From a virus (Duplodnaviria; Caudoviricetes): a stretch of 64,000 nt of DNA. Below, in pieces: positions 5,809-30,094 of the stretch. Position numbers and translations under genes: made by a program. The DNA is taken from positions 791-64,790 of IMG/VR virus record IMGVR_UViG_3300009104_000020; one strand, 5' to 3'. The notes under the pieces were generated by a model. The model saw only the letters and a list, made by a program, of their open reading frames with translations, ran no database searches and was not told the DNA's origin. Numbering within the stretch: position 1 is the stretch's first letter; the number at the start of each line of letters is the position of its first letter.

Positions 5809-6651
5809 ATGGGACAAGGTTATGTTAAGATGTTCCGCAAGGTGTTGGACAACCCCAACGCCACCAACCCAATGTGGCTGGCCGTATGGAACTACCTCCT
5901 TCTTCGAGCAACCCACAAGCCTGTCACAATGAGAATCAGCGGGAAAGACAGGGTTCTCGACCCCGGAGAATTAGTCTGTAGTTGCCGCAAAATAGCCGAT
6001 TTCTTTGAGATAAATAAGGATACAGTACATAGGATATTAGTCACTATGGAAAACGACCTTATGATAAGACGCAAAAAGTACCCAAGAAAGACAGTAGTTA
6101 CGGTGCTAAACTGGGATTCTTACCAATCGCAACAGACAGTCGAGGGGACAGCGAAGGGGACAGTCGAGGGGACAGTCGTGGGGACACTAACAAGAAGAAA
6201 GAAGAAAGAAGAAATTAAAGAACATGATATGGCGGGAGGAGAAAAGGCTTCTAGGGAAATGGAGAAGCTGGCTCCCGTTGCTCGTGAGGTGCTGGCAGAG
6301 TTCAACAAGCGAGCAGGCAAGAGGTTCAAGGGGGATGCCAACCTTGAGACAATCCGTGGCAGGTTAAGGGAAGGCTTCACCAAGGAGGAGATGATCCAAG
6401 TGATCGACAACAAGGTGAAGGAACTCAAAGGCACGGTCAACGAGCCAAAGTGGCTAACCCCCATCTGCATCTTCCGAAAGACCAACATGGACAGGAACCT
6501 CATGTTTGCGCTGGAAGGTGACAGGATAAAGGAAATCAATTTACAGGATGAGTACAGAAGAGTTTGCAACTCCGATGGCTACAGGGCGCAGAAGATAAGG
6601 GAAGAACTGGCTGAAATTAGAAGTGGAAAACTTGTACAACATAGAAGCTGA
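5809..6651 (+). CDS. Phage replication initiator (lambda O-like, conserved phage C-terminal domain)
   Basis: GYVK.FRK...W.YLLLRA.H N-terminus, TV.NW.SYQ, WLTP..IFR C-terminus; internal iterons; followed by dnaB. Confidence 0.8.
   Translation: MGQGYVKMFRKVLDNPNATNPMWLAVWNYLLLRATHKPVTMRISGKDRVLDPGELVCSCRKIADFFEINKDTVHRILVTMENDLMIRRKKYPRKTVVTVLNWDSYQSQQTVEGTAKGTVEGTVVGTLTRRKKKEEIKEHDMAGGEKASREMEKLAPVAREVLAEFNKRAGKRFKGDANLETIRGRLREGFTKEEMIQVIDNKVKELKGTVNEPKWLTPICIFRKTNMDRNLMFALEGDRIKEINLQDEYRRVCNSDGYRAQKIREELAEIRSGKLVQHRS
6135..6188 (+). repeat. Four tandem 12-bp iterons (GACAGTCGAGGG), putative replication origin
   Basis: Copies at 6135, 6147, 6159, 6171 inside the initiator gene, followed by an A-rich purine tract. 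Confidence 0.7.
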
Positions 6652-7942
6652 AAAAGGGCTGTTAGGCTGCTGTATGCTTGGAGGGATCGAGGAATGCGTG
6701 TCTGCCGGGGTGGATGCGAGTTGGTTCTTCGACCTACGCCACTACGAGATATACCGCACCCTTGAGGAGATGCACGATAGGGCAGAGGAAATAGACACAT
6801 CCAAGCTAATCTATGAACTGCGCTCCAAGAATACCCTAGATAAGATCGGAGGCCCTGCTGTCTTAACCGAGTACGAAGACAAAGCACCAACGGCCCATAA
6901 TGCCCCGTATTGGCTCTCTGAGCTATTTGGATACCGAACCCGGCGTCAGACCAAGGCGAAGCTGGAAAGTGCCATACAGCGCATATCAACGGCCAATGTG
7001 GGCGAAATAGATGGAATGGTAGCTGACCTCCAAACATTCATAACCGACCTCTCTGACCATGTGTCCCGCGAAACGGACGAAACCCTGAAGAAGCCAATCA
7101 TCTCGGTTGTCAACAGTATCGAGGAAAGATATCACAATAAAACTGAAACACCTTGGGGCATCCCAACTGGCTTCCGAAACCTAGACAACCTGCTTGGAGG
7201 CCTGCGGAAAGGATCTCTCTACATTATAGCTGGTCGTCCAGGTCAGGGAAAAACAGCTATGGGGCTAGGCATAACCCTGAACATTACTGCCTCTGCCAAT
7301 CCGGTAGCTCTGTTCTCCCTTGAAATGAACAAGGAGGAGGTGGCTATGCGCCTTATGGCAGCTTATTCCGACCTAGATATGCAGCAGGTTTTCAGGGGGC
7401 ATATAAGCAAGAAGGACTTTGTAAAGATAGGTGAAGCCTCCAAATTAACAGGTTTACCCTTATGGGTTAATGAAAGAACCGACCTAACCATCAATATGTT
7501 GCGATCCGAAGCCAGACGGTATGTCAGGAACTACGGGGTTAAGGTGCTTGTAATAGATTACCTCCAGCTTATGACCGGCTCCAAGGAAGCAAGGCGAAGC
7601 GGGAAATACGAGGTGGTAAGCGAAATATCCCGAGGGCTGAAGCTTATGGCGCAGGAGCTTGATATCCCCGTAATAGCCCTTGCCCAGCTTAACCGCGACT
7701 ACGAAAAGACTGGTAGTGAAAGGAAACCTAGATTATCCGATCTCCGCGACTCTGGCAGTATCGAACAGGATGCTGATTGCTGTATGTTTCTATATGAAAA
7801 CAACAAGGACGGCAATGAAGGGGATCGAAGAATAAACTGCTTAATAGCAAAGAACAGAAACGGAGAACCAAACAAGGACGCATATTTTGAGTTCCAACCG
7901 GAATATACCAAGTTCGTTCCGTTGTCTCCCGTGGATAGATGA
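6623..7942 (+). CDS. dnaB: Replicative DNA helicase
   Basis: AGRPGQGKT Walker A, FSLEM, IDYLQLM, LAQLNR, LRDSGSIEQDAD, IAKNRNG. Confidence 0.97.
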   Translation: MENLYNIEAEKGLLGCCMLGGIEECVSAGVDASWFFDLRHYEIYRTLEEMHDRAEEIDTSKLIYELRSKNTLDKIGGPAVLTEYEDKAPTAHNAPYWLSELFGYRTRRQTKAKLESAIQRISTANVGEIDGMVADLQTFITDLSDHVSRETDETLKKPIISVVNSIEERYHNKTETPWGIPTGFRNLDNLLGGLRKGSLYIIAGRPGQGKTAMGLGITLNITASANPVALFSLEMNKEEVAMRLMAAYSDLDMQQVFRGHISKKDFVKIGEASKLTGLPLWVNERTDLTINMLRSEARRYVRNYGVKVLVIDYLQLMTGSKEARRSGKYEVVSEISRGLKLMAQELDIPVIALAQLNRDYEKTGSERKPRLSDLRDSGSIEQDADCCMFLYENNKDGNEGDRRINCLIAKNRNGEPNKDAYFEFQPEYTKFVPLSPVDR

Positions 7943-9349: not shown

Positions 9350-9524
9350 CGCTGTCTAGCCAACGCTCAATTTCATCCAGAATATCCACGGGAACCTGAT
9401 TCTTCGGCATCGGACTCCTTACCAGTATCTTCATCTGGAACCCAGTTTCGTCTGCCACACAGGCTGCCCCAACCGCAAACACCATTCCCTCGGAGCATAT
9501 CGTCAATATGAAGTATCTTGGCAC
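9306..9524 (-). CDS. Hypothetical protein
   Basis: Coupled to the upstream prepilin-like gene. Confidence 0.45.
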   Translation of the reverse strand: MPRYFILTICSEGMVFAVGAACVADETGFQMKILVRSPMPKNQVPVDILDEIERWLDSVRKDYHQYHLMSLP

Positions 9525-9832
9525 TACTCGATTTCCTCCAAGAACGAACGAGCGTCATACCTCGGCCTGTGACAGTCGTGACAGTTGGCTTCCTGTGGTA
9601 TCTCTATAACCAACCTCCCGCTTTCCAACACCCCAACACCATATGACCTAACCGCTACACGGCAAGCCACCCTCTGGGCCTCCTCCTTCGCCTGACCAAC
9701 CCCCGGCAAAAGCAAAGACACCAGCAGTATGATGATTACACATACCATCAGCAACTCTATTAGCGTCACCCCTTGATCCCTTCCTTTTTCCAGCCTGCGC
9801 TTTCCCCAGGGTACTCCTCGTTTATCCAGCAT
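9524..9832 (-). CDS. Prepilin-type N-terminal cleavage/methylation protein (PVC/DUF1559-type N-terminus) with CXXCH
   Basis: G|VTLIELLMVCVIIILLVSLLLPGVGQAKEEAQRVAC; C-terminal CHDCH. Confidence 0.8.
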   Translation of the reverse strand: MLDKRGVPWGKRRLEKGRDQGVTLIELLMVCVIIILLVSLLLPGVGQAKEEAQRVACRVAVRSYGVGVLESGRLVIEIPQEANCHDCHRPRYDARSFLEEIE

Positions 9833-10113
9833 CCTCCCCCCATTATAATTTTAAACGGCATATAGCACCCACACCCAGCATTACTACCGCTATAAGGCCG
9901 ACAACGGCGTAGGCTCCGATCAAAAAGCAAACACCTACTGCAACAACGATACTTTCTAGCAACCTCTTTACCACGACTTCCTCCTATCACCTTTACCATA
10001 CTCCACACTAGGCGCAACTTATCCCTCACCGTTGCCCCCCCAAACTCCTCCTTCAACACCTCAAGCCACTCTTTGTAACGCTTTAGCCTGAACATAGGTG
10101 CAGAGAGTAGCAT
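9766..10113 (-). CDS. Cys-rich protein (DUF6171-like)
   Basis: C..C......RRC......CGCYMPFK.....CW. Confidence 0.55.
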   Translation of the reverse strand: MLLSAPMFRLKRYKEWLEVLKEEFGGATVRDKLRLVWSMVKVIGGSRGKEVARKYRCCSRCLLFDRSLRRCRPYSGSNAGCGCYMPFKIIMGGGCWINEEYPGESAGWKKEGIKG

Positions 10114-10270
10114 TGAAAGTGAAAAACGCCAGAAAGTTGAGAAGAGGGATGTATAGCTGCTGCCTTGGCTAGACGCCGTCCCCCCTCCCCCTACCCCCCC
10201 AAATGGGCCAAACGGGGTAACACTATTTGGTTAGGGTGACAACGCAGTTCCTATAGGTGTAAGGCCTTAC

Positions 10271-10281
10271 GGTCTTTGACA
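10271..10281 (+). promoter_or_regulatory. boxA-like antitermination element
   Basis: GGTCTTTGACA resembles rrn boxA (GCTCTTTAACA / GTTCTTTGAAA); sits at the head of the long non-coding region. Confidence 0.4.
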
Positions 10282-10285
10282 TTGA

Positions 10286-11156
10286 GGGTGCAAGCCGGTG
10301 GATGCCGCTTGTATCCGTTGGGTTCAGTAGAGGCTTCCGCTAAAACGCATGGCGGCTACCAACCCTGACTGTACTAGATTTTCCGCAAGTTGCCTTGGCG
10401 ACTATGTGTCGGGCGGAGACGGTCAGCGGCAAAAGGGTGCAAGCAAATAGTCAGCACCACGGCCATGTTAAATGTTAGCATCATCAGGAGTAAGTGACGC
10501 GCCTCATGGGACACAACAAGCAATCAGCGGATTACCGAAAAACCGATGGAGAACGAAACTCCACGCAAAAAACAAATATTAGGCTTCGGCCAAAAATGCA
10601 GCGAGTAGGTTAATCCGGCTCCGAGAATGGAGTGTTCCACACAAACAAATCGTCATAATCATTGGAACATGGCGTGATAGTATGCGTCCCCGATAGCATG
10701 GGGCATAAGTAGGACGGTGCGACCGGCGAGGTCAGCAAATGCACCGTGGCAGCCGAATCAAGCGTATATTCCCAAAGTGGAGCATCAAAGAATGCGTGAA
10801 ATAGTTTCGCCAATGAAGCGTTTGAGAGAGATTGGTCGAGAATGCGTGTGCGTTGAAGCTAGTGTTAAAAGCTAGTGACAGGAACGGCACGGGGTACGCA
10901 AAGTAAATCCCAAAGGGCAAGGGCCACAAGGCTCAAAGCTGATGGGTGTTGCGGCGAACCATAGCGAAACGGCATTAGTAGATGTTAGCAAGGTGGGTGT
11001 GCGGTAGTCACTACGGTGGCGAGATACCTGATGAGGGAAATCAGACCTCAAGGATAGGCCGTGACAGCGGCGTGACAGATCCTGCTTAAAATCGTGGCAT
11101 ACGAGCGGCGAGCGTGTTCAAGCAACACCTTTGCAAGTCAACGCTGCTCAAGTGTC
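10286..11156 (+). ncRNA. Large structured non-coding RNA, GOLLD-like
   Basis: No + strand ORF of 60 aa or more; consecutive hairpins with G-U pairs on the + strand, cUUCGg loop, A-rich linkers; family assignment is by resemblance only. Confidence 0.65.
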
Positions 11157-11212
11157 TAGTGCTTGTTGGCATTGCACTACTGATGATGACCAGCCAAAAA
11201 GGTCGAAACACT
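11151..11212 (+). ncRNA. Type III hammerhead ribozyme
   Basis: AGUGUC|UAGUGC-loop-GCACUA-CUGAUGA-U-GACC-loop-GGUC-GAA-ACACU; loop1 UUGGC pairs with loop2 GCCAA. Confidence 0.92.
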
Positions 11213-11234
11213 AAAACAAACGAAAGGAAAACAA

Positions 11235-11870
11235 ATGAGTAAGCAATACAAAACCATAAAAAACGGTGGATTAGTCAAGGTAGAGATCGACAGTTATCAA
11301 ATCGCGATTCAAGGCACAACCGATATTCCGGCGGCGTCTTGGACAAAATACGACAGCTTGAACCAAGCAAGTTGGGCGAGCCAAGGGCTAATCAAGCTTG
11401 AATACAAAACCGACAAGCATGGCAAGCGAACGGTCAAGCGATTAGCGGAAAATGCGGAGTTTTACCGCAAGCAACACAAGGCTTGGAAAGCAACCGAAAA
11501 GGCAATCAATGATTCAATGCGGAAGATTGAAAAGGAAAACCCAACCCTGTCCAAGCAAAAGATGACCCTTGTCAAGGATGCGGATACCGGCGAGGTCAAG
11601 CGGTATGTGAAACGGGCAAGCTATAGAAACAGCGAACAACCCTTGCATATGCAGTTGAAAGGTGCGGAAAAGGTCAAGGCTACAGCGGCCAAGGATGCCA
11701 AGATACAGCAACAATCGGAAGAAATTGCCAGACTCAAGAAAATGGTAGCCAATATCCCACCTGCCAAGCCGGTACAGATTGACCCGTTGGCGGCATATAA
11801 AGCGGGTGATCCGGCACAACAGCAGCAGGTGATGTCTGCATTACAGACGCTTGGCTTGGTGACAGCCTAA
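11235..11870 (+). CDS. Lysine-rich basic hypothetical protein
   Basis: GAAAGGA SD; 22 nt after the hammerhead; followed by terminator. Confidence 0.8.
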   Translation: MSKQYKTIKNGGLVKVEIDSYQIAIQGTTDIPAASWTKYDSLNQASWASQGLIKLEYKTDKHGKRTVKRLAENAEFYRKQHKAWKATEKAINDSMRKIEKENPTLSKQKMTLVKDADTGEVKRYVKRASYRNSEQPLHMQLKGAEKVKATAAKDAKIQQQSEEIARLKKMVANIPPAKPVQIDPLAAYKAGDPAQQQQVMSALQTLGLVTA

Positions 11871-11901
11871 CAGCAGCAGTAGCAGTAGCAGTAGCAGTAG
11901 C
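11871..11901 (+). repeat. (C/T)AG triplet microrepeat
   Basis: CAGCAGCAGTAGCAGTAGCAGTAGCAGTAGC. Confidence 0.8.
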
Positions 11902-11938
11902 GACCCTGCCCACCATCGGAGTGGGTGGGGTCTTTTTG
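11902..11938 (+). terminator. Intrinsic terminator
   Basis: GACCCTGCCCAC...GTGGGTGGGGTC followed by TTTTT. Confidence 0.8.
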
Positions 11939-13751: not shown

Positions 13752-14143
13752 GTCTGGCAAAAGAAATACTGGAGATACTCAAGTCGCCTAACTCCGATGG
13801 TGAGTTCGACATCAAGCTGGCAACAAGTAAGTGCGAGGATGTTATCGCCAAGGAGGAGAGGGACAGAAGGACAAGCGACCTCGACGGGGTCATCCAAAGC
13901 GTAAGAGAGATAGCAGAATGCCTTGCGAGCTGGGAGTGTCAGTTGGATAGCTTCCATGAGGGATACCCAACCTGTAGGGACGAGCTGTTGTTGGATGAGA
14001 TAACCGACAAGGTAAGTGCCGAGTGCCAAGGCATAGGCGAGGCGGCTACCAAGTTGGAAAAGATCGCTGATGACTACGAGGACAAGGTGAACGCTCGACT
14101 GCATGAACTAGACCCGGAGGAATACCCGGAGGAGGAAGCATGA
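13748..14143 (+). CDS. Acidic helical hypothetical protein
   Basis: AAGGAGGT SD; ATGA overlap. Confidence 0.7.
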   Translation: MSLAKEILEILKSPNSDGEFDIKLATSKCEDVIAKEERDRRTSDLDGVIQSVREIAECLASWECQLDSFHEGYPTCRDELLLDEITDKVSAECQGIGEAATKLEKIADDYEDKVNARLHELDPEEYPEEEA

Positions 14144-14874
14144 GCGGAGTTGTATATGCACTAACCAACCCGGCGTTCCCGAACCTTGTAAAGATAGGAA
14201 AGACCAACGACTTGGGCAACAGGCTCAACCAGCTGTATAGCACGGGAGTTCCGTCCCCATTCGAGTGCCTCTATGCCAAGGAGGTAAGCGATCCGTCCTA
14301 TGTGGAGGGGAAGTTGCACATGGCCCTCTCTAGCAAGAGGCGTAGCAACAAGAGGGAGTTCTTCGAGGTGGATAGCAACGAGGTGGTGTGTATGTTTGAT
14401 CTAGTATCAGGCAAAGACATAACACCTGACAAGGAGAGGCCGGAAGAACCCAAGTGGGACAGCACCCTTCGGGTGAGGTTGCCTGACTCTGGCCCGGAAC
14501 TTGAGGGCGATAGCGTTGTTGATCTGCTTAATGGAGCGAAGGCGCGTGGTGTTGGATGCACCAAGTATTCCACCATCATAAGCCGAAGGAAGAAGGGGTG
14601 GACAATGGAGCAGGCGTTTGGCTTCGATGTTCCACCAAACTACACCGAGGTAAACGGGCTGTTGCCAAAAGGGTATGCTTATTTCCCATCCTACCCGACT
14701 GGTGACGACAACACGAAACCTATAGTTCTGCACTCGTTGAAAAGGATATACATATCCCAGAGACATTTCGCAGATGAACACGGTATCCCTCCCGATTATG
14801 TAAGCGACAAGCTGAAGGCAGGGTGGGAGGCTGACAAGATAGTAACAGAGTATGGAAACGATGACGGCACATAA
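14140..14874 (+). CDS. GIY-YIG T5orf172-domain protein
   Basis: GVVYALTNPAFP.LVKIGKT...RL.QLY.TGVP.PF...E..LH...REFF. Confidence 0.9.
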   Translation: MSGVVYALTNPAFPNLVKIGKTNDLGNRLNQLYSTGVPSPFECLYAKEVSDPSYVEGKLHMALSSKRRSNKREFFEVDSNEVVCMFDLVSGKDITPDKERPEEPKWDSTLRVRLPDSGPELEGDSVVDLLNGAKARGVGCTKYSTIISRRKKGWTMEQAFGFDVPPNYTEVNGLLPKGYAYFPSYPTGDDNTKPIVLHSLKRIYISQRHFADEHGIPPDYVSDKLKAGWEADKIVTEYGNDDGT

Positions 14875-26864: not shown

Positions 26865-27099
26865 TCGAAGGTGTTCGGAAAGTAAGACTATTAAGATCAA
26901 CGAGAATGCATTGGTCGAGATAAATGGCAAGATCGAGAAGCTGTTGGCTAGTCTTATACAGAAGAAGATGGCGATTGAAGTGGCTCGTGAGAAAATAGTG
27001 AGGGCCGTGACAGATGAGGCCACAGCGGAAATGAGACGAGCCTTCATCAAGAAGGTAAGGTCGGATAAGGATATAGAATTATTTAACTATGAAAGCTAA
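26830..27099 (+). CDS. Hypothetical coiled-coil protein
   Basis: Operon context. Confidence 0.55.
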   Translation: MQLSEECQKEIDRRCSESKTIKINENALVEINGKIEKLLASLIQKKMAIEVAREKIVRAVTDEATAEMRRAFIKKVRSDKDIELFNYES

Positions 27100-27928
27100 T
27101 GACGCACTAAATGAAATGTTAAGCTGGATGGAGGCTATCGGTAAGGCTCCCAAGACAATCGAGAATACTTGGAGAGAGGTGGACTTGTTCCTTCATTTTT
27201 CCATGTTCTCGGCCATACGCACGGTGAATGTTGATGAAATAGATGAGTTTCATTTGAACAGCTACATCAATGATACGGAAAAGGAGACAACCGTTGGAAC
27301 GCGGCGGTATAAGCTGTCTGCTTTAAGGACTTTCCTCACATACTGCGTGAACAAGGGGTGGAGAAAGGATAACCCCGCTGCCTTGGTGAAGGTTAACATC
27401 AGGAAAGTTCCGCACAGGAGCAGGGAAGCCAAGAAGAAGGAGGCGTACACCTCGGAGGAAATCAAATATATCCTAGCAAATACTGACGGTTTCTGGAGGG
27501 CAGCAATACTTATAGCCTTGGAAACGGGGCTTCGGATTGGGGACATAGTTCAACTGGAGTGGGACTGTTTCACCCATGATTCTATTGTTGTCTGGACTGA
27601 CAAGAGGGACAAGAGGGTGGATCTGAAGATGAGCCTGCGGTTGCACAAAACCATAGCTAATCTGCCGTGTCTGCATGAGGACTACCTATTCCCGGAGCAG
27701 AGGCTTGACTACCTGTCCCCGGAGGAGGGAGGCAGGGGGAAGAGGACATGGTTTCCCGTTACCTTTAAGAGAATGATGAACGAGTTCGGGATAGACGGTA
27801 AGACATTCCATTCTTTAAGGGTTACTCACGCCAGTCTTCGCAGTAAAGATGGCGAGGATGTGGCAGAAATAGCCAAGGACTTGGCCCACTCAAGCTCGGA
27901 CACCACAAGGAAACATTACATTACTTGA
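27089..27928 (+). CDS. Tyrosine recombinase/integrase (Xer-like size)
   Basis: SAM-like N-domain, TGLRIGD, FHSLRVT, LAHSS..TT..HY catalytic residues. Confidence 0.92.
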   Translation: MKANDALNEMLSWMEAIGKAPKTIENTWREVDLFLHFSMFSAIRTVNVDEIDEFHLNSYINDTEKETTVGTRRYKLSALRTFLTYCVNKGWRKDNPAALVKVNIRKVPHRSREAKKKEAYTSEEIKYILANTDGFWRAAILIALETGLRIGDIVQLEWDCFTHDSIVVWTDKRDKRVDLKMSLRLHKTIANLPCLHEDYLFPEQRLDYLSPEEGGRGKRTWFPVTFKRMMNEFGIDGKTFHSLRVTHASLRSKDGEDVAEIAKDLAHSSSDTTRKHYIT

Positions 27929-28605
27929 GGAAAACAACCTACAGTAAGGGTGAGCGCAAGGCTATCCACTTGGCGTTGGAAGAAGCAAAGGGAGATGTCG
28001 AACAGGCATCCTTGCTGGTTAATATACCCAAGGCTAATATATATAAACTCATAAGGAATGACAAGGAATTTAACGCAAGGTGGAGCAAAGACCCTGTCGA
28101 GCCACTCACCAAGTCCGAGGTGGTTCACAGACCTGACCCTTCCGTTCGGTTTGCTGATAGACTGAAGGAGGAGGAAAGGGCGTTAACGCATGGTTTGGAG
28201 GCAGTAGGTATTGTTGGCAAGGCAAAGGAAGAGGCCATAGCTGCGGCAGCTTTCAGCAGTACCCACCTCCAGGCCATGCGTCAAATGACAGCGGGAGGAA
28301 TACTCAAGGACTTCACGCAACTGGGTGTTCTTATGGAGGATCTGAAGGGGGAGTTATCTGCCGGTCAAGAGGAAGAGCGAGAGAAAACCCTGTATGAAGC
28401 CCTGTTTAATGCCGTCAAGTACAGAAATGAAATCAACAGGGACATCCTACGGGGCGCACTCATTGACGCACAGATAAAAGCCAAGCAAGATGAGAAGGGC
28501 AGACCACAAGGTAAGCCGGGGTTCACTCCCATGAACAACATCATCGTACAAACAGATGCCACGAAAGTCGAAGTAAAGGATGCCAATAAGGGAACCACTA
28601 ACTGA
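27925..28605 (+). CDS. Probable terminase small subunit
   Basis: Fis-type HTH (AL....G.V.QA..L.I....IY); directly upstream of TerL. Confidence 0.55.
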   Translation: MRKTTYSKGERKAIHLALEEAKGDVEQASLLVNIPKANIYKLIRNDKEFNARWSKDPVEPLTKSEVVHRPDPSVRFADRLKEEERALTHGLEAVGIVGKAKEEAIAAAAFSSTHLQAMRQMTAGGILKDFTQLGVLMEDLKGELSAGQEEEREKTLYEALFNAVKYRNEINRDILRGALIDAQIKAKQDEKGRPQGKPGFTPMNNIIVQTDATKVEVKDANKGTTN

Positions 28606-30094
28606 TGAGGAGGTGGAGGCGTTGGCTGGCTTCGAGGCTGCACCAAGGCCAGAGCCAGAACAAACAGAATGGTATCCAGACCTCAACGAAACCCAGCAGA
28701 AAATCTTTAACGATAATGCTAGGTTCATCCTTGGGTACGGGGAGAAGGGGTCAGGAAAAACCATTGGCTTTGCGCATAAGTTAACCCGCCACCTCTACGA
28801 GGAGGAGAATGCGCTTGTGCTAATCATAGCTCCCAGTATACGCACAGGGGCAGAAGGTATCTGGCATGATCTTGACACCTTGGTTCTTCCGCAATGGGAG
28901 GAGGGGATTAACCTCGAATACACCGCATCCAAGCTAGACCCAAACACCAAGGACAGACATCGCTGGGTAATGAATAGGTTTGGTGGGTGGAGCAAGATGC
29001 TACTTGTGTCCATTCCTTACGCTGCTGCGGTGGAGACTAGGATCAAGGGGCCAGCACCCAGCCATGTCTATGTGGATGAGCTTACTCAATGTGACGGGGT
29101 GGAATACTTCCGTTACCCAGCGGCCCAGCTAGGGAGAAGGCGAGGTATCCGTGGGCCTCAACAGTTCTGTGCAAGCTGCAACCCGGAGGGGCCTAGTCAT
29201 TGGGTGTACAAGCAGTTCTTTGAGGACATCCTTGATGAAGACAGCGGGAAGATGGACAAGCGATTCAAGGTGTACCATGTCCCGATAACGGAGAATACAG
29301 TACGACTTCCAGAGGGGTATGTTGATAATCTTCGATCCATCCTGAAGGCTGACCCAGTAGAGTGGAGGAGGCTGATCGAGGGAGAGTGGGTAGACAGACC
29401 AAGCGGCGAGGCCCTGTTCAGAGACTATTACTCACCGGAACTGCACAAGAAGGGGGACGAGATTAAAGGCAGCGGGCTTATGCCAAAGGCAGGACACCCC
29501 GTCATTGTGGGCTATGACTTGGGGCAGGTGTACTCTGCTGTAACATTCCTCCAGATGATCCCGACCAAGAGGGGAAACCTATGGACAGTTTTCGATGAGG
29601 TAGATTATCTGGGTGAGCGACACCTTTACAAAAGGCTATGCCAGCAGATCATAAAGCGCATGAATTACTGGAACGAAAGGATAGGAACCGAGTTTCACTA
29701 TGAGCATATCACCGACTCAAGTGCCATCAACCAATGGCATCCCGGCGGAGAGGGGAGCTACGATAGCTGGGATTTTGAGCGTTACAGTAATGGCAGGATC
29801 AGGATGGTCGGATGCCCGAAGGGACAAGGTAGCGTGGAGGCTAGGGTTAGGTTACTGTCTAGCAAGTTGTTTCAAGATGAGTTCTATGTGAGCGCACAAT
29901 GCCCTAACACAACGGATATGCTGATGCGTCTGGAGGCAGACAAGAAAGACCCAACCAAGCCCAAGCGCAGCCGGTACATCCACAAATTTGACAGCGTGAC
30001 TTATCCAATATTTAAGCTAGAATTAAACGGGCAAGCCCATGCCCCCAGGGCGAGGGACATGAAGGCGAACCTAATCCATTGTGGAATTACTTGA
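28580..30094 (+). CDS. terL: Terminase large subunit
   Basis: LN.TQ, GEKGSGKT Walker A, YVDE Walker B, SCNP.GPSHW, GEW, VGYDLG RNase H domain, H.FD. Confidence 0.9.
   Translation: MPIREPLTDEEVEALAGFEAAPRPEPEQTEWYPDLNETQQKIFNDNARFILGYGEKGSGKTIGFAHKLTRHLYEEENALVLIIAPSIRTGAEGIWHDLDTLVLPQWEEGINLEYTASKLDPNTKDRHRWVMNRFGGWSKMLLVSIPYAAAVETRIKGPAPSHVYVDELTQCDGVEYFRYPAAQLGRRRGIRGPQQFCASCNPEGPSHWVYKQFFEDILDEDSGKMDKRFKVYHVPITENTVRLPEGYVDNLRSILKADPVEWRRLIEGEWVDRPSGEALFRDYYSPELHKKGDEIKGSGLMPKAGHPVIVGYDLGQVYSAVTFLQMIPTKRGNLWTVFDEVDYLGERHLYKRLCQQIIKRMNYWNERIGTEFHYEHITDSSAINQWHPGGEGSYDSWDFERYSNGRIRMVGCPKGQGSVEARVRLLSSKLFQDEFYVSAQCPNTTDMLMRLEADKKDPTKPKRSRYIHKFDSVTYPIFKLELNGQAHAPRARDMKANLIHCGIT

What the first reader, a model, noticed from the sequence alone, without database searches (positions are those of the whole stretch)
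11151..11212. Type III hammerhead with U insertion and Watson-Crick loop-loop contact
Seen: stem III AGUGU/ACACU, GUC site, stem I UAGUGC/GCACUA, CUGAUGA core, an extra U before stem II GACC/GGUC, then GAAA. Loop 1 UUGGC is complementary to loop 2 GCCAA. Established: loop I-II contacts support fast cleavage at low Mg2+, and single-nt insertions after A9 occur in natural hammerheads. Its 3' arm abuts the RBS of the next gene.
Basis: partly seen in the sequence, partly recalled or inferred. Interest (0 to 1): 0.7.

Follow-up and report, generated by a model that had tools for sequence, protein, structure and literature searches.

The report
Phage hammerhead ribozyme between RNA and gene
This is a genuine, evolutionarily conserved type III hammerhead self-cutting RNA in an uncultured marine phage, placed exactly between a large conserved non-coding RNA and the next gene, and distant relatives carry a different self-cutting RNA (twister) at the same spot, so the cut itself seems to be what matters.

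Summary
Window 11151-11212 (+) has every defining hammerhead part: stem III AGUGU/ACACU, GUC, stem I, CUGAUGA, an extra U, stem II, GAAA.

- Chance: a descriptor scan finds it once in the window and in 0 of 300 shuffles.
- Rfam: Hammerhead_3 aligns full length but scores only 24.4 bits against a cut-off of 48.5. The whole-window Rfam scan misses it.
- Conservation: five orthologous loci carry it in front of the same 211-aa gene. Both-sided changes occur in stems I and II. Every core base is invariant except N7, which is U, A or G.
- The extra U: present in 3 sequences, absent in 3, and G in one strain. At least 114 IMG/VR stretches carry the same U arrangement.
- The loop-loop pairing is plausible and has one both-sided change, but it is a published feature (Perreault 2011).

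New context:
- The ribozyme starts 2 nt after the last helix of a conserved, structured ~0.9-kb non-coding RNA.
- Three loci of a distant clade have a twister-P1 match at the same position.

Cleavage itself is untested and no RNA data exist. The scan has noted other phage hammerheads on other DNA, but no look-alike of this stretch. Verdict: a new member of a known kind, of moderate interest.

The parts
11151..11155 (+). Stem III, 5' strand (AGUGU; U11155 = U16.1)
   Evidence: Pairs with 11208-11212. Invariant in 5 orthologs, except the outer pair in L126.
11156..11156 (+). C17; predicted cleavage 3' of this base, new 5'-OH end at U11157
   Evidence: GUC triplet at 11154-11156. Invariant in 5 orthologs. 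Cleavage was not tested.
11157..11179 (+). Stem I (UAGUGC/GCACUA) closed by 11-nt loop 1 (UUGUUGGCAUU, 11163-11173)
   Evidence: Two stem I pairs change on both sides among orthologs. Strain variants change 11163 U>G together with 11173 U>C, adding a G-C pair, and 11158 A>G keeps a G.U pair.
11180..11186 (+). Catalytic core C3-A9 (CUGAUGA)
   Evidence: Invariant in 5 orthologs except N7, which is U, A or G.
11187..11187 (+). Extra U between A9 and G10.1
   Evidence: Present in the window, L123 and L122; absent in L124, L125 and L126; G in run X5. The same arrangement occurs in at least 114 IMG/VR stretches.
11188..11204 (+). Stem II (GACC/GGUC) closed by 9-nt loop 2 (AGCCAAAAA, 11192-11200); GCCAA is complementary to UUGGC of loop 1
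   Evidence: Two stem II pairs change on both sides among orthologs. Loop complementarity is kept at 3-5 bp as parsed, 4-5 if the top pairs are left open, with a U-A to A-U switch.
11205..11212 (+). G12 A13 A14 plus stem III 3' strand (A15.1 CACU)
   Evidence: Invariant in 5 orthologs, except the last base in L126.
11103..11149 (+). 3'-terminal helix plus inner hairpin of the upstream non-coding RNA; ends 2 nt before the hammerhead
   Evidence: RNAalifold on 5 orthologs: 15 pairs, 3 of them with both-sided changes (columns 15-61).
10232..11149 (+). Conserved, structured, ORF-poor RNA region (~0.9 kb) upstream of the ribozyme
   Evidence: 70-78% nucleotide identity in L123-L126. RNAalifold gives 190 pairs, 40 with a both-sided change, and indels confined to discrete hairpins. 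Strain indels are not multiples of three. No Rfam family at E<=10. Folding energy alone is not significant.
10217..10225 (+). GTAACACTA motif just upstream of the first helix of the non-coding RNA (possible promoter element; inference)
   Evidence: 11 exact copies in the window against 0.22 expected. Conserved upstream of the RNA in L125 and L126.
11222..11237 (+). Purine-rich RBS (GAAAGGAAA) and ATG start
   Evidence: The start agrees with the ortholog alignment.
11235..11870 (+). 211-aa gene of unknown function, always downstream of the ribozyme
   Evidence: ORF. No Pfam or PHROG family. Orthologs at 34-78% identity.
11902..11932 (+). Terminator-like hairpin (12 bp, 8 GC) plus U run, closing the unit

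Best explanation
Window 11151-11212 encodes an active type III hammerhead ribozyme. I infer that a + strand transcript starts upstream of the ~0.9-kb structured non-coding RNA. It would run through that RNA, the ribozyme and the 211-aa gene to the terminator at 11902-11932. Once stems I and II have been transcribed, they dock side by side. The 5-bp Watson-Crick pairing between loop 1 (UUGGC) and loop 2 (GCCAA) probably helps this docking. The core then cuts the chain after C11156. The upstream RNA is released with a 7-nt tail ending in a 2',3'-cyclic phosphate. The weak 5-bp stem III should make release fast and irreversible. The downstream mRNA starts with a 5'-OH and carries the folded ribozyme body 9 nt ahead of its RBS. 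One cut therefore both finishes the 3' end of the large RNA and frees the message from a 0.9-kb structured leader. Shown: the motif, its conservation, stem covariation, its position, and its replacement by twister in relatives. Inferred: cleavage itself, co-transcription, and the benefit.
For: Motif complete. It occurs once in the window and in 0 of 300 shuffles. RF00008 aligns full length at 24.4 bits, E 0.0012 in an 86-base scan. A model built from 28 other phage type III hammerheads gives 49.2 bits, E 1.6e-12, as the only window hit; its core and stem II columns were picked with a pattern taken from this window, so that part is circular. Orthologs: of 7 metagenome loci found with the downstream protein, L123, L124 and L125 have a full hammerhead and L122 a truncated one by the model. 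L126 has one by alignment that the model missed. On 4 sequences, 98.4% of cells pair, 4 of 16 pairs change on both sides, and slid controls pair at 27-45%. RNAalifold recovers all three stems de novo on 5 sequences. Every core position is invariant except N7, which is U, A or G. Strain variants keep pairing in stem I and add a G-C pair. Position: the last helix of the non-coding RNA ends at 11149. No terminator-like or sigma-70-like site lies on the + strand between 10114 and 11235. All 3 loci of the distant clade (L127, L128, L129) have a full-length twister-P1 match at 44-47 bits, E 4e-9 to 1e-7, ending 14 nt before the orthologous start codon. 16 of 28 other phage type III hammerheads lie -2 to 40 nt before a same-strand ORF start. 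Literature: phage hammerheads in intergenic regions, pseudoknots in all three types, and a halovirus hammerhead 13 nt before a start codon with a mapped 5' end (PMC3088659, passages). [quoted passage not shown]
Against: No cleavage assay has been done. All Rfam scores are below gathering: 24.4 and 30.7 against 48.5 for hammerhead, 44-47 against 67.2 for twister. For the window's own sequence the hammerhead fold is not the minimum-energy fold: -13.0 against -14.7 kcal/mol for a competing pairing of AGUGU with stem I, and the z-score is -0.94. One low-depth strain contig (X8) shows 11203 U>C, which gives an A.C mismatch in the 4-bp stem II. Stem III never varies, so it carries no covariation evidence. 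The loop-loop support is thin: the window alone is not significant (5072 of 20000 shuffles), and the U-A to A-U switch is probably one evolutionary event. Co-transcription with the upstream RNA is inferred. The upstream RNA's folding energy is not better than shuffles (z -0.80).
Confidence: 0.72

Rival explanations
1. The hammerhead is active, but the upstream 0.9 kb is only a long leader. The selected effect is then purely on the mRNA. The cut would give a defined 5'-OH end and a folded 5' cap-like structure, insulating translation and stability of the 211-aa gene from upstream sequence, as the engineered RiboJ insulator does (recalled; no paper seen).
For: 16 of 28 other phage type III hammerheads sit -2 to 40 nt before an ORF start, and most have no long ORF-free stretch upstream. 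The twister in the distant clade keeps the same close spacing to the start codon, 14 nt. The halovirus precedent is 13 nt before a start codon (PMC3088659, passage).
Against: The upstream region is conserved at about the level of the coding region and has many both-sided pair changes and hairpin-sized indels. Its last helix ends 2 nt from the ribozyme in all 5 orthologs. Its 5' and 3' parts are still recognisable in the twister clade. That is more than a passive leader would be expected to keep.
Confidence: 0.2
2. It is a hammerhead-shaped leader that no longer cuts, or cuts only under some condition. It would act as a structural or regulatory element, for example by switching between the hammerhead fold and the competing AGUGU/GCACU pairing.
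For: The competing fold is 1.7 kcal/mol more stable than the hammerhead fold in the window, and a non-hammerhead fold is also the minimum in L124 and L125. There is an extra nucleotide next to the core. Stem II is short and carries an A.C mismatch in one strain contig. Scores are below the Rfam cut-off.
Against: All catalytic positions are invariant over 5 orthologs whose flanks differ by 22-30%, and the only variable core position is N7, the one known to be free. In L123 and L126 the hammerhead fold is the minimum-energy fold. Replacement by an unrelated self-cleaving class at the same site argues that cutting is the selected activity.
Confidence: 0.07
3. It is a chance resemblance with no function.
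For: Rfam at gathering score reports nothing. The single-sequence fold has a z-score of -0.94.
Against: 0 of 300 shuffles contain any such site. The motif is conserved with covariation in 5 orthologous loci.
Confidence: 0.01

Closest known systems
Type III hammerhead ribozymes of phages and prophages, including pseudoknot-stabilised forms (Perreault et al. 2011, PMC3088659; Rfam RF00008, clan CL00010)
   Same: Same three-way junction, same core and same open stem III. The position is intergenic, in front of a phage gene. Watson-Crick pairing between the loops of stems I and II is possible, which the paper reports for about 40% of hammerheads and for all three types. [quoted passage not shown]
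   Different: It scores only 24.4 bits against the Rfam cut-off of 48.5, because of long loops, a 4-bp stem II and the extra U. It sits directly after a large structured RNA rather than between two protein genes.
Hammerhead of haloviruses HF1/HF2, 13 nt upstream of a helicase start codon (described in Perreault et al. 2011)
   Same: A ribozyme just ahead of a start codon at the head of a transcript. There, a mapped 5' end lies within 3 nt of the cleavage site (passage).
   Different: That ribozyme has insertions near C3 and is salt-dependent. This one has a canonical core apart from the extra U after A9.
Natural hammerheads with an extra nucleotide between A9 and G10.1 (De la Pena and Flores 2001, J Biol Chem)
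   Same: A single extra base at the same place.
   Different: Those are viroid and satellite RNAs. I saw only the title, in two reference lists; the details are recalled. Here the extra base is U in three sequences, absent in three and G in one strain.
Shared genomic contexts of twister and hammerhead ribozymes (Roth et al. 2014, as summarised by Weinberg, Weinberg and Hammann 2019, PMC6765202)
   Same: Two unrelated self-cleaving classes occur in the same gene neighbourhood (passage).
   Different: Here the exchange is at one orthologous site, a few nucleotides before orthologous start codons, in two clades of one phage group. That is a much tighter case than a statistical gene association.
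RiboJ-type synthetic insulators (type III hammerhead placed before an RBS; recalled, no paper seen)
   Same: A type III hammerhead cuts off the upstream leader and stays on the mRNA just ahead of the RBS.
   Different: RiboJ is engineered and has an added hairpin. This element is natural, and what it removes is a conserved structured RNA.
GOLLD / ROOL large ornate phage-associated RNAs (for the upstream RNA only)
   Same: A large, ORF-free, structured RNA in a phage genome.
   Different: No Rfam match to either, or to any family, at E<=10 in the window or at E<=5 in 4 ortholog loci.

Membership tests
Hammerhead ribozyme, type III (Rfam RF00008) | Three-way junction with stems I and II closed by loops and stem III open | tested here: met
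   RNAalifold recovers it de novo on 5 orthologs.
Hammerhead ribozyme, type III (Rfam RF00008) | Core C3 U4 G5 A6 N7 G8 A9 | tested here: met
   CUGAUGA at 11180-11186. Only N7 varies among 5 orthologs.
Hammerhead ribozyme, type III (Rfam RF00008) | G12 A13 A14 with an A15.1-U16.1 pair, and an NUH cleavage triplet | tested here: met
   GAAA at 11205-11208, A11208-U11155, GUC at 11154-11156. Invariant in orthologs.
Hammerhead ribozyme, type III (Rfam RF00008) | G10.1-C11.1 pair directly after A9 | tested here: inconclusive
   G11188-C11204 is present, but one extra U (11187) separates it from A9. Orthologs L124, L125 and L126 lack the extra base.
Hammerhead ribozyme, type III (Rfam RF00008) | Score at or above the curated gathering score (48.5 bits) | tested here: not met
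   24.4 bits for the window, 30.7 bits for L124, and 0 matches at gathering over the whole window. This is a model cut-off, not a biochemical criterion.
Hammerhead ribozyme, type III (Rfam RF00008) | Stems supported by compensatory change | tested here: met
   4 of 16 pairs change on both sides (2 in stem I, 2 in stem II) and 98.4% of cells pair. Stem III is invariant. The alignment was fitted to the model; one search is independent of it.
Hammerhead ribozyme, type III (Rfam RF00008) | Mg2+-dependent self-cleavage giving 2',3'-cyclic phosphate and 5'-OH | not testable with these tools
   No RNA run holds the stretch. Only DNA contigs were laid.
Pseudoknot-stabilised hammerheads (Perreault et al. 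2011) | 4 or more Watson-Crick pairs between loop I and loop II (or its tail), kept by covariation | tested here: inconclusive
   5 bp in the window and 3-5 bp in 4 orthologs as parsed, 4-5 if the top pairs are left open, with one U-A to A-U switch. In 9 phage type III hammerheads with loop 1 of 6 nt or more, the summed complementarity is 31 against 20.6 for swapped partners (0 of 20000 reach it) and 28 of 20000 for letter shuffles. The window alone gives 5072 of 20000.
Twister ribozyme, type P1 (RF03160), for the element at the same site in L127, L128 and L129 | Full-length match to the family model at or above gathering score (67.2 bits) | tested here: not met
   Full-length alignments (model 1-68) at 44.4, 47.1 and 44.4 bits, E 4e-9 to 1e-7. 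These are significant but below the cut-off. The three sequences are nearly identical, so they give no covariation test.
GOLLD / ROOL RNAs, for the upstream RNA | Match to the Rfam family models | tested here: not met
   No such match at E<=10 in 10100-11240 or at E<=5 in L123-L126.

The most novel reading that the evidence does not exclude
The unit is a conserved three-part module of marine phages: a ~0.9-kb ornate non-coding RNA, a self-cleaving ribozyme and a 211-aa protein gene. The ribozyme's job would be to finish the 3' end of the large RNA with a cyclic phosphate while launching the mRNA of what may be that RNA's protein partner. Any fast self-cleaver would do, since one clade uses a hammerhead and another a twister. 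That would give phage ribozymes a concrete and testable role: 3'-end maturation of a large structured RNA.
Probability: 0.35. Interest if true: 0.65.

Novelty: new member of a known kind. Interest (0 to 1): 0.42.

Why it matters
What the many self-cleaving ribozymes of bacteria and phages are for is still an open question; the 2019 review states this (PMC6765202, passages). This locus is a clean natural experiment. The same gene in two related phage clades is preceded by two unrelated ribozyme classes at the same distance from the start codon. In both clades the ribozyme follows a long non-coding region whose ends are still alignable between them. That argues that the cut is the selected function, and it names the two RNAs the cut separates. 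It also shows that standard Rfam thresholds miss a whole lineage of marine phage hammerheads. As a ribozyme the element is ordinary: its extra U and its loop-loop pairing are both known variations.

Tried and rejected
- Rfam found nothing at gathering score over the whole window, and no hammerhead in a 501-base E-value scan. The match appeared only in an 86-base scan. Searching the window's own record with RF00008 also found nothing at E<=10.
- blastn of 10100-11900 against the phage collection gave no match.
- The downstream protein gave only 1 weak locus in IMG/VR as a single sequence and 1 as an alignment. It has no PHROG, Pfam, PDB or Atlas lead.
- Helicase-based relatives: 5 loci. Only L121 spans the ribozyme site; L120 reaches only to about window 10154. 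They had no hammerhead by regex or by model R1. The only R1 hit there was a weak one in L118 (11.9 bits, E 0.62), which I did not follow.
- Model R1 missed the real hammerhead of L126.
- Folding energy of the hammerhead alone (z -0.94) and of the upstream RNA (z -0.80 on +, +0.81 on -) is uninformative.
- No RNA holder was listed for this stretch, so the 5' end at 11157 could not be checked. The four runs laid were DNA contigs only.
- GOLLD-like identity of the upstream RNA: no Rfam support.
- One ribozyme cutting many remote sites in trans, as earlier notes of this scan proposed on other DNA: considered and rejected by reasoning, not by a call, because stems I and II are both closed by loops. 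The recurrent GTAACACTA motif has the same sense as the ribozyme's 3' arm, not its complement.
- I looked for an RNA polymerase gene that could use GTAACACTA as a promoter. None was found among the 18 ORFs scanned against PHROGs. Not all ORFs were scanned.
- Look-alikes in this scan's earlier notes: none.
- Supplementary files were not opened. Figures S4 to S6 and the sequence lists of Perreault 2011 may already hold relatives of this hammerhead.
Full report
WHAT THE WINDOW IS. The window is bases 791-64790 of a 64,790-base IMG/VR virus record, estimated 92% complete. Nearly all long ORFs are on the + strand. PHROG matches include a DnaB-like helicase (6623-7942), a large terminase (28580-30094), an integrase (27089-27928) and tail and virion proteins. 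Near-identical DNA is held only by runs labelled as marine or seawater metagenomes.

THE OBSERVATION.
- Stem III: AGUGU (11151-11155) with ACACU (11208-11212).
- Cleavage triplet: GUC, with C17 = C11156.
- Stem I: UAGUGC/GCACUA, closing an 11-nt loop.
- Core: CUGAUGA (11180-11186), followed by an extra U (11187).
- Stem II: GACC/GGUC, closing a 9-nt loop.
- GAAA (11205-11208).
- UUGGC in loop 1 is the exact complement of GCCAA in loop 2.

The 3' arm ends 9 nt before the purine-rich RBS and 22 nt before the ATG at 11235, so 'abuts' is a little generous.

IS IT MORE THAN CHANCE?
- A descriptor for type III hammerheads found one site in the window and none in 300 dinucleotide-preserving shuffles. 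The descriptor asked for CUGANGA, 0-1 inserted base, a G-C-closed stem II, GAAA, stems I and III, and a UH triplet. Relaxed stem lengths gave the same result, although CUGANGA alone occurs 44 times.
- Rfam is less kind. It gave nothing at gathering score and nothing in a 501-base E-value scan.
- Only in an 86-base scan did RF00008 align over its full length, at 24.4 bits and E 0.0012, against a cut-off of 48.5.
- The minimum-energy fold of the 62 nt is not the hammerhead. It is a competing pairing of AGUGU with the 3' strand of stem I: -14.7 against -13.0 kcal/mol, z-score -0.94.
- On single-sequence evidence alone the case would therefore be good but not closed.

RELATIVES SETTLE IT. The downstream 211-aa protein has no known family but does have orthologs. 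An alignment of six of them retrieved 7 metagenome loci.

Five loci form the closer clade, with protein identity 52-78%.
- Model R1 found a full hammerhead at the same position in L123, L124 and L125, and the 3' half of one at the cut end of L122.
- R1 missed L126, but alignment and parsing show a complete hammerhead there too.
- Across the window and these four full copies, every core base is invariant except N7, which is U, A, U, U and G. N7 is the one core position known to be free (established knowledge).
- Stem I is UAGUGC/GCACUA, UGGUGCG/CGCACUA, AAAUGCG/CGCGUUU or AGUUGCG/CGCGACU.
- Stem II is GACC/GGUC, GGCC/GGCC, GACU/GGUC or GGCA/UGCC.
- On the four model-aligned sequences, 98.4% of cells pair and 4 of 16 pairs change on both sides. 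Controls with the partner slid by 1-3 columns pair at only 27-45%.
- That alignment was fitted to the structure. An ordinary MAFFT alignment of five sequences, folded by RNAalifold, also gives stems III, I and II with no prior input.
- Stem III never varies, so it offers no covariation evidence.

Strain-level variants from DNA contigs of other marine runs fit the same picture.
- 11158 A>G keeps a G.U pair.
- 11163 U>G and 11173 U>C occur together and add a G-C pair to stem I.
- In run X5, 11187 U>G and 11203 U>C occur together. They can be read as a re-registered stem II, GG(A)CC/GGCC.
- In run X8, 11203 U>C occurs alone and leaves an A.C mismatch in stem II. It comes from one contig at depth 3.1, which the tool warns may be an error.

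THE EXTRA U.
- It is present in the window, L123 and L122. It is absent in L124, L125 and L126, and it is G in X5. It is therefore tolerated and not conserved.
- My parser classed 39 of the matches in the loci then held as type III, giving 31 distinct sequences including the window's own. Many others are visibly type I.
- I ran no chance control for that scan. With 21 fixed bases, chance matches should be few (inference).
- An extra base at this place in viroid hammerheads is the subject of De la Pena and Flores 2001. I saw only its title, in two reference lists.

THE LOOP-LOOP CONTACT.
- Alone, the window's 5-bp complementarity is unremarkable once loop composition is kept: 5072 of 20000 letter shuffles reach 5 bp.
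- Among orthologs the central GGC/GCC is invariant. The flanking pair is U-A in the window and L124, and A-U in L123, L125 and L126. This leaves 3 to 5 complementary bases in every copy as parsed, or 4 to 5 if the top pairs of stems I and II are left open.
- In L123, L125 and L126 stem I can also extend into the loop, which would compete with the contact.
- Nine phage type III hammerheads with the U insertion have a loop 1 of at least 6 nt. Their summed longest complementarity is 31, against a mean of 20.6 when loop partners are swapped. No swap in 20000 reached it, and 28 of 20000 letter shuffles did. Without the window, 51 of 20000 reached it. Some of the nine are related to each other.
- Perreault et al. 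2011 report pseudoknots between stems I and II in all three types and in about 40% of hammerheads. They show that these matter at 0.5 mM Mg2+. [quoted passage not shown] Here the stems are 6 and 4 bp.
- The contact is therefore likely, and not new.

CONTEXT: WHAT LIES UPSTREAM.
- The 1.1 kb between the divergent minus-strand genes (ending at 10113) and the ATG at 11235 has no ORF above 67 aa on either strand.
- It is conserved at 70-78% nucleotide identity in L123-L126, about as well as the coding region.
- RNAalifold on the five sequences predicts 190 pairs, 40 of them with a both-sided change. It includes a long-range closing helix, and length differences are confined to discrete hairpins.
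- Strain indels there are 1, 2, 3, 4 and 7 bases long.
- The last helix of this RNA (11103-11110 with 11142-11149, around a covarying hairpin) ends 2 nt before stem III of the hammerhead in all five sequences.
- No Rfam family matches, GOLLD and ROOL included.
- Folding energy alone does not distinguish the region from shuffles.
- No terminator-like or sigma-70-like site lies on the + strand between 10114 and 11235. A strong terminator-like hairpin follows the gene at 11902-11932.
- The 9-mer GTAACACTA occurs 11 times in the window against 0.22 expected. One copy sits at 10217, just before the first helix of the RNA, and is conserved there in L125 and L126. It may mark a promoter, but that is inference.

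CONTEXT: THE DISTANT CLADE.
- The three loci whose protein is only 34% identical (L127, L128, and L129, which lies on the same contig as L121) have no hammerhead.
- Rfam instead finds a full-length twister-P1 match at 44.4, 47.1 and 44.4 bits, with E 4e-9 to 1e-7. This is below the 67.2-bit cut-off. It ends 14 nt before the orthologous ATG.
- The three copies are almost identical, so they count as about one observation.
- The long non-coding stretch upstream of that twister still aligns with the window's RNA at its 5' end (window 10120-10263, about 70% identity). It also aligns in a block near its 3' end. The same module therefore seems to exist with a different ribozyme.
- The 2019 review notes that twister and hammerhead share gene neighbourhoods. 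[quoted passage not shown] This locus is a site-specific instance of that.

HOW IT MOST LIKELY WORKS.
- Established chemistry of the class is a cut 3' of position 17, giving a 2',3'-cyclic phosphate and a 5'-OH.
- Cutting after C11156 would therefore leave the large RNA with a 7-nt tail. The mRNA would start with the folded ribozyme body 9 nt ahead of its RBS.
- The 5-bp stem III should let the two products part.
- Among 28 other phage type III hammerheads with the same U arrangement, 16 lie -2 to 40 nt before a same-strand ORF start. Some of these are close relatives of each other.
- Perreault et al. describe a halovirus hammerhead 13 nt before a start codon, with a mapped 5' end nearby. Sitting just ahead of a gene is thus typical.
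- What is particular here is the partner on the other side of the cut.
- I cannot tell whether the selected benefit is the 3' end of the large RNA, the 5' end of the mRNA, or both. I rate 'both' as likeliest because both flanks are conserved right up to the ribozyme.

WHAT REMAINS OPEN.
- Cleavage was not assayed.
- No RNA run holds the stretch (reported only as a blank).
- The start of transcription is inferred.
- Supplementary files of the papers were not opened.

VERDICT. This is a real, conserved, probably active type III hammerhead: a new member of a known kind that standard thresholds miss. The interesting part is the context. The ribozyme is the hinge between a conserved ~0.9-kb structured RNA and a conserved gene, and a twister replaces it at the same hinge in a sister clade.

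Noticed in passing
window 10232-11149 (+): A conserved, ORF-poor region of about 0.9 kb with a predicted ornate structure: 190 pairs, 40 with both-sided changes, and hairpin-sized indels among 5 orthologs. No Rfam family matches. It ends 2 nt before the hammerhead.
   Followed up: partly
L129:2390-2462, L127:2390-2462, L128:134-206 (all +): Full-length twister-P1 (RF03160) matches at 44-47 bits, below the 67.2 cut-off. They lie 14 nt upstream of the ortholog of the 211-aa gene, at the position the hammerhead occupies in the window's clade.
   Followed up: partly
window 10217, 16610, 22382, 26449, 30097, 37084, 42496, 48748, 59973 (+); 40405, 44643 (-): GTAACACTA occurs 11 times against 0.22 expected. 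Several copies lie 14-32 nt before start codons or overlap stop codons. The hammerhead's 3' arm (GAAACACTA at 11205) is a one-mismatch variant 30 nt before its gene's ATG, and the twister clade has a similar word just before the twister. It may be a phage promoter element with a partial likeness to T7/SP6-type promoter cores (recalled, not tested).
   Followed up: partly
window 11902-11932 (+): A strong terminator-like hairpin (12 bp, 8 GC, U run) right after the 211-aa gene. The RNA, ribozyme and gene look like one closed transcription unit.
   Followed up: no
window 9350-10113 (-): A small block of minus-strand ORFs in an otherwise + strand genome. One of them (9524-9832) has a weak N-terminal methylation (prepilin-type) motif: Pfam PF07963 at 20.4 bits against a 21.2 cut-off.
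   Followed up: no
window 11028-11048 (+): CCUGAUGAGGGAAAUCAG inside the upstream RNA looks hammerhead-like. It is only a hairpin (CUGAU/AUCAG) that varies among orthologs, not a second ribozyme. Model R1 finds no other hammerhead in the window.
   Followed up: yes
window 14140-14874 (+) and 27089-27928 (+): A T5orf172/GIY-YIG-like domain protein (Pfam PF10544, E 2.7e-15). An integrase (PHROG 1, E 1.5e-36) lies next to the terminase, which suggests a temperate lifestyle.
   Followed up: no
L118:8168-8218 (-): A weak hit of model R1 (11.9 bits, E 0.62) with CUGAUGAU and GAAAC in a helicase-related contig. Probably chance.
   Followed up: no
loci L003-L116 (IMG/VR): Phage hammerheads with the same CUGAUGA-U-GACC...GGUC-GAAAC arrangement are common, with at least 114 stretches. 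The type III ones fall into two visible subgroups. One has a 7-bp stem I with a 4-nt loop. The other has a 6-bp stem I with a 7-nt loop whose 3' part is complementary to loop 2.
   Followed up: partly
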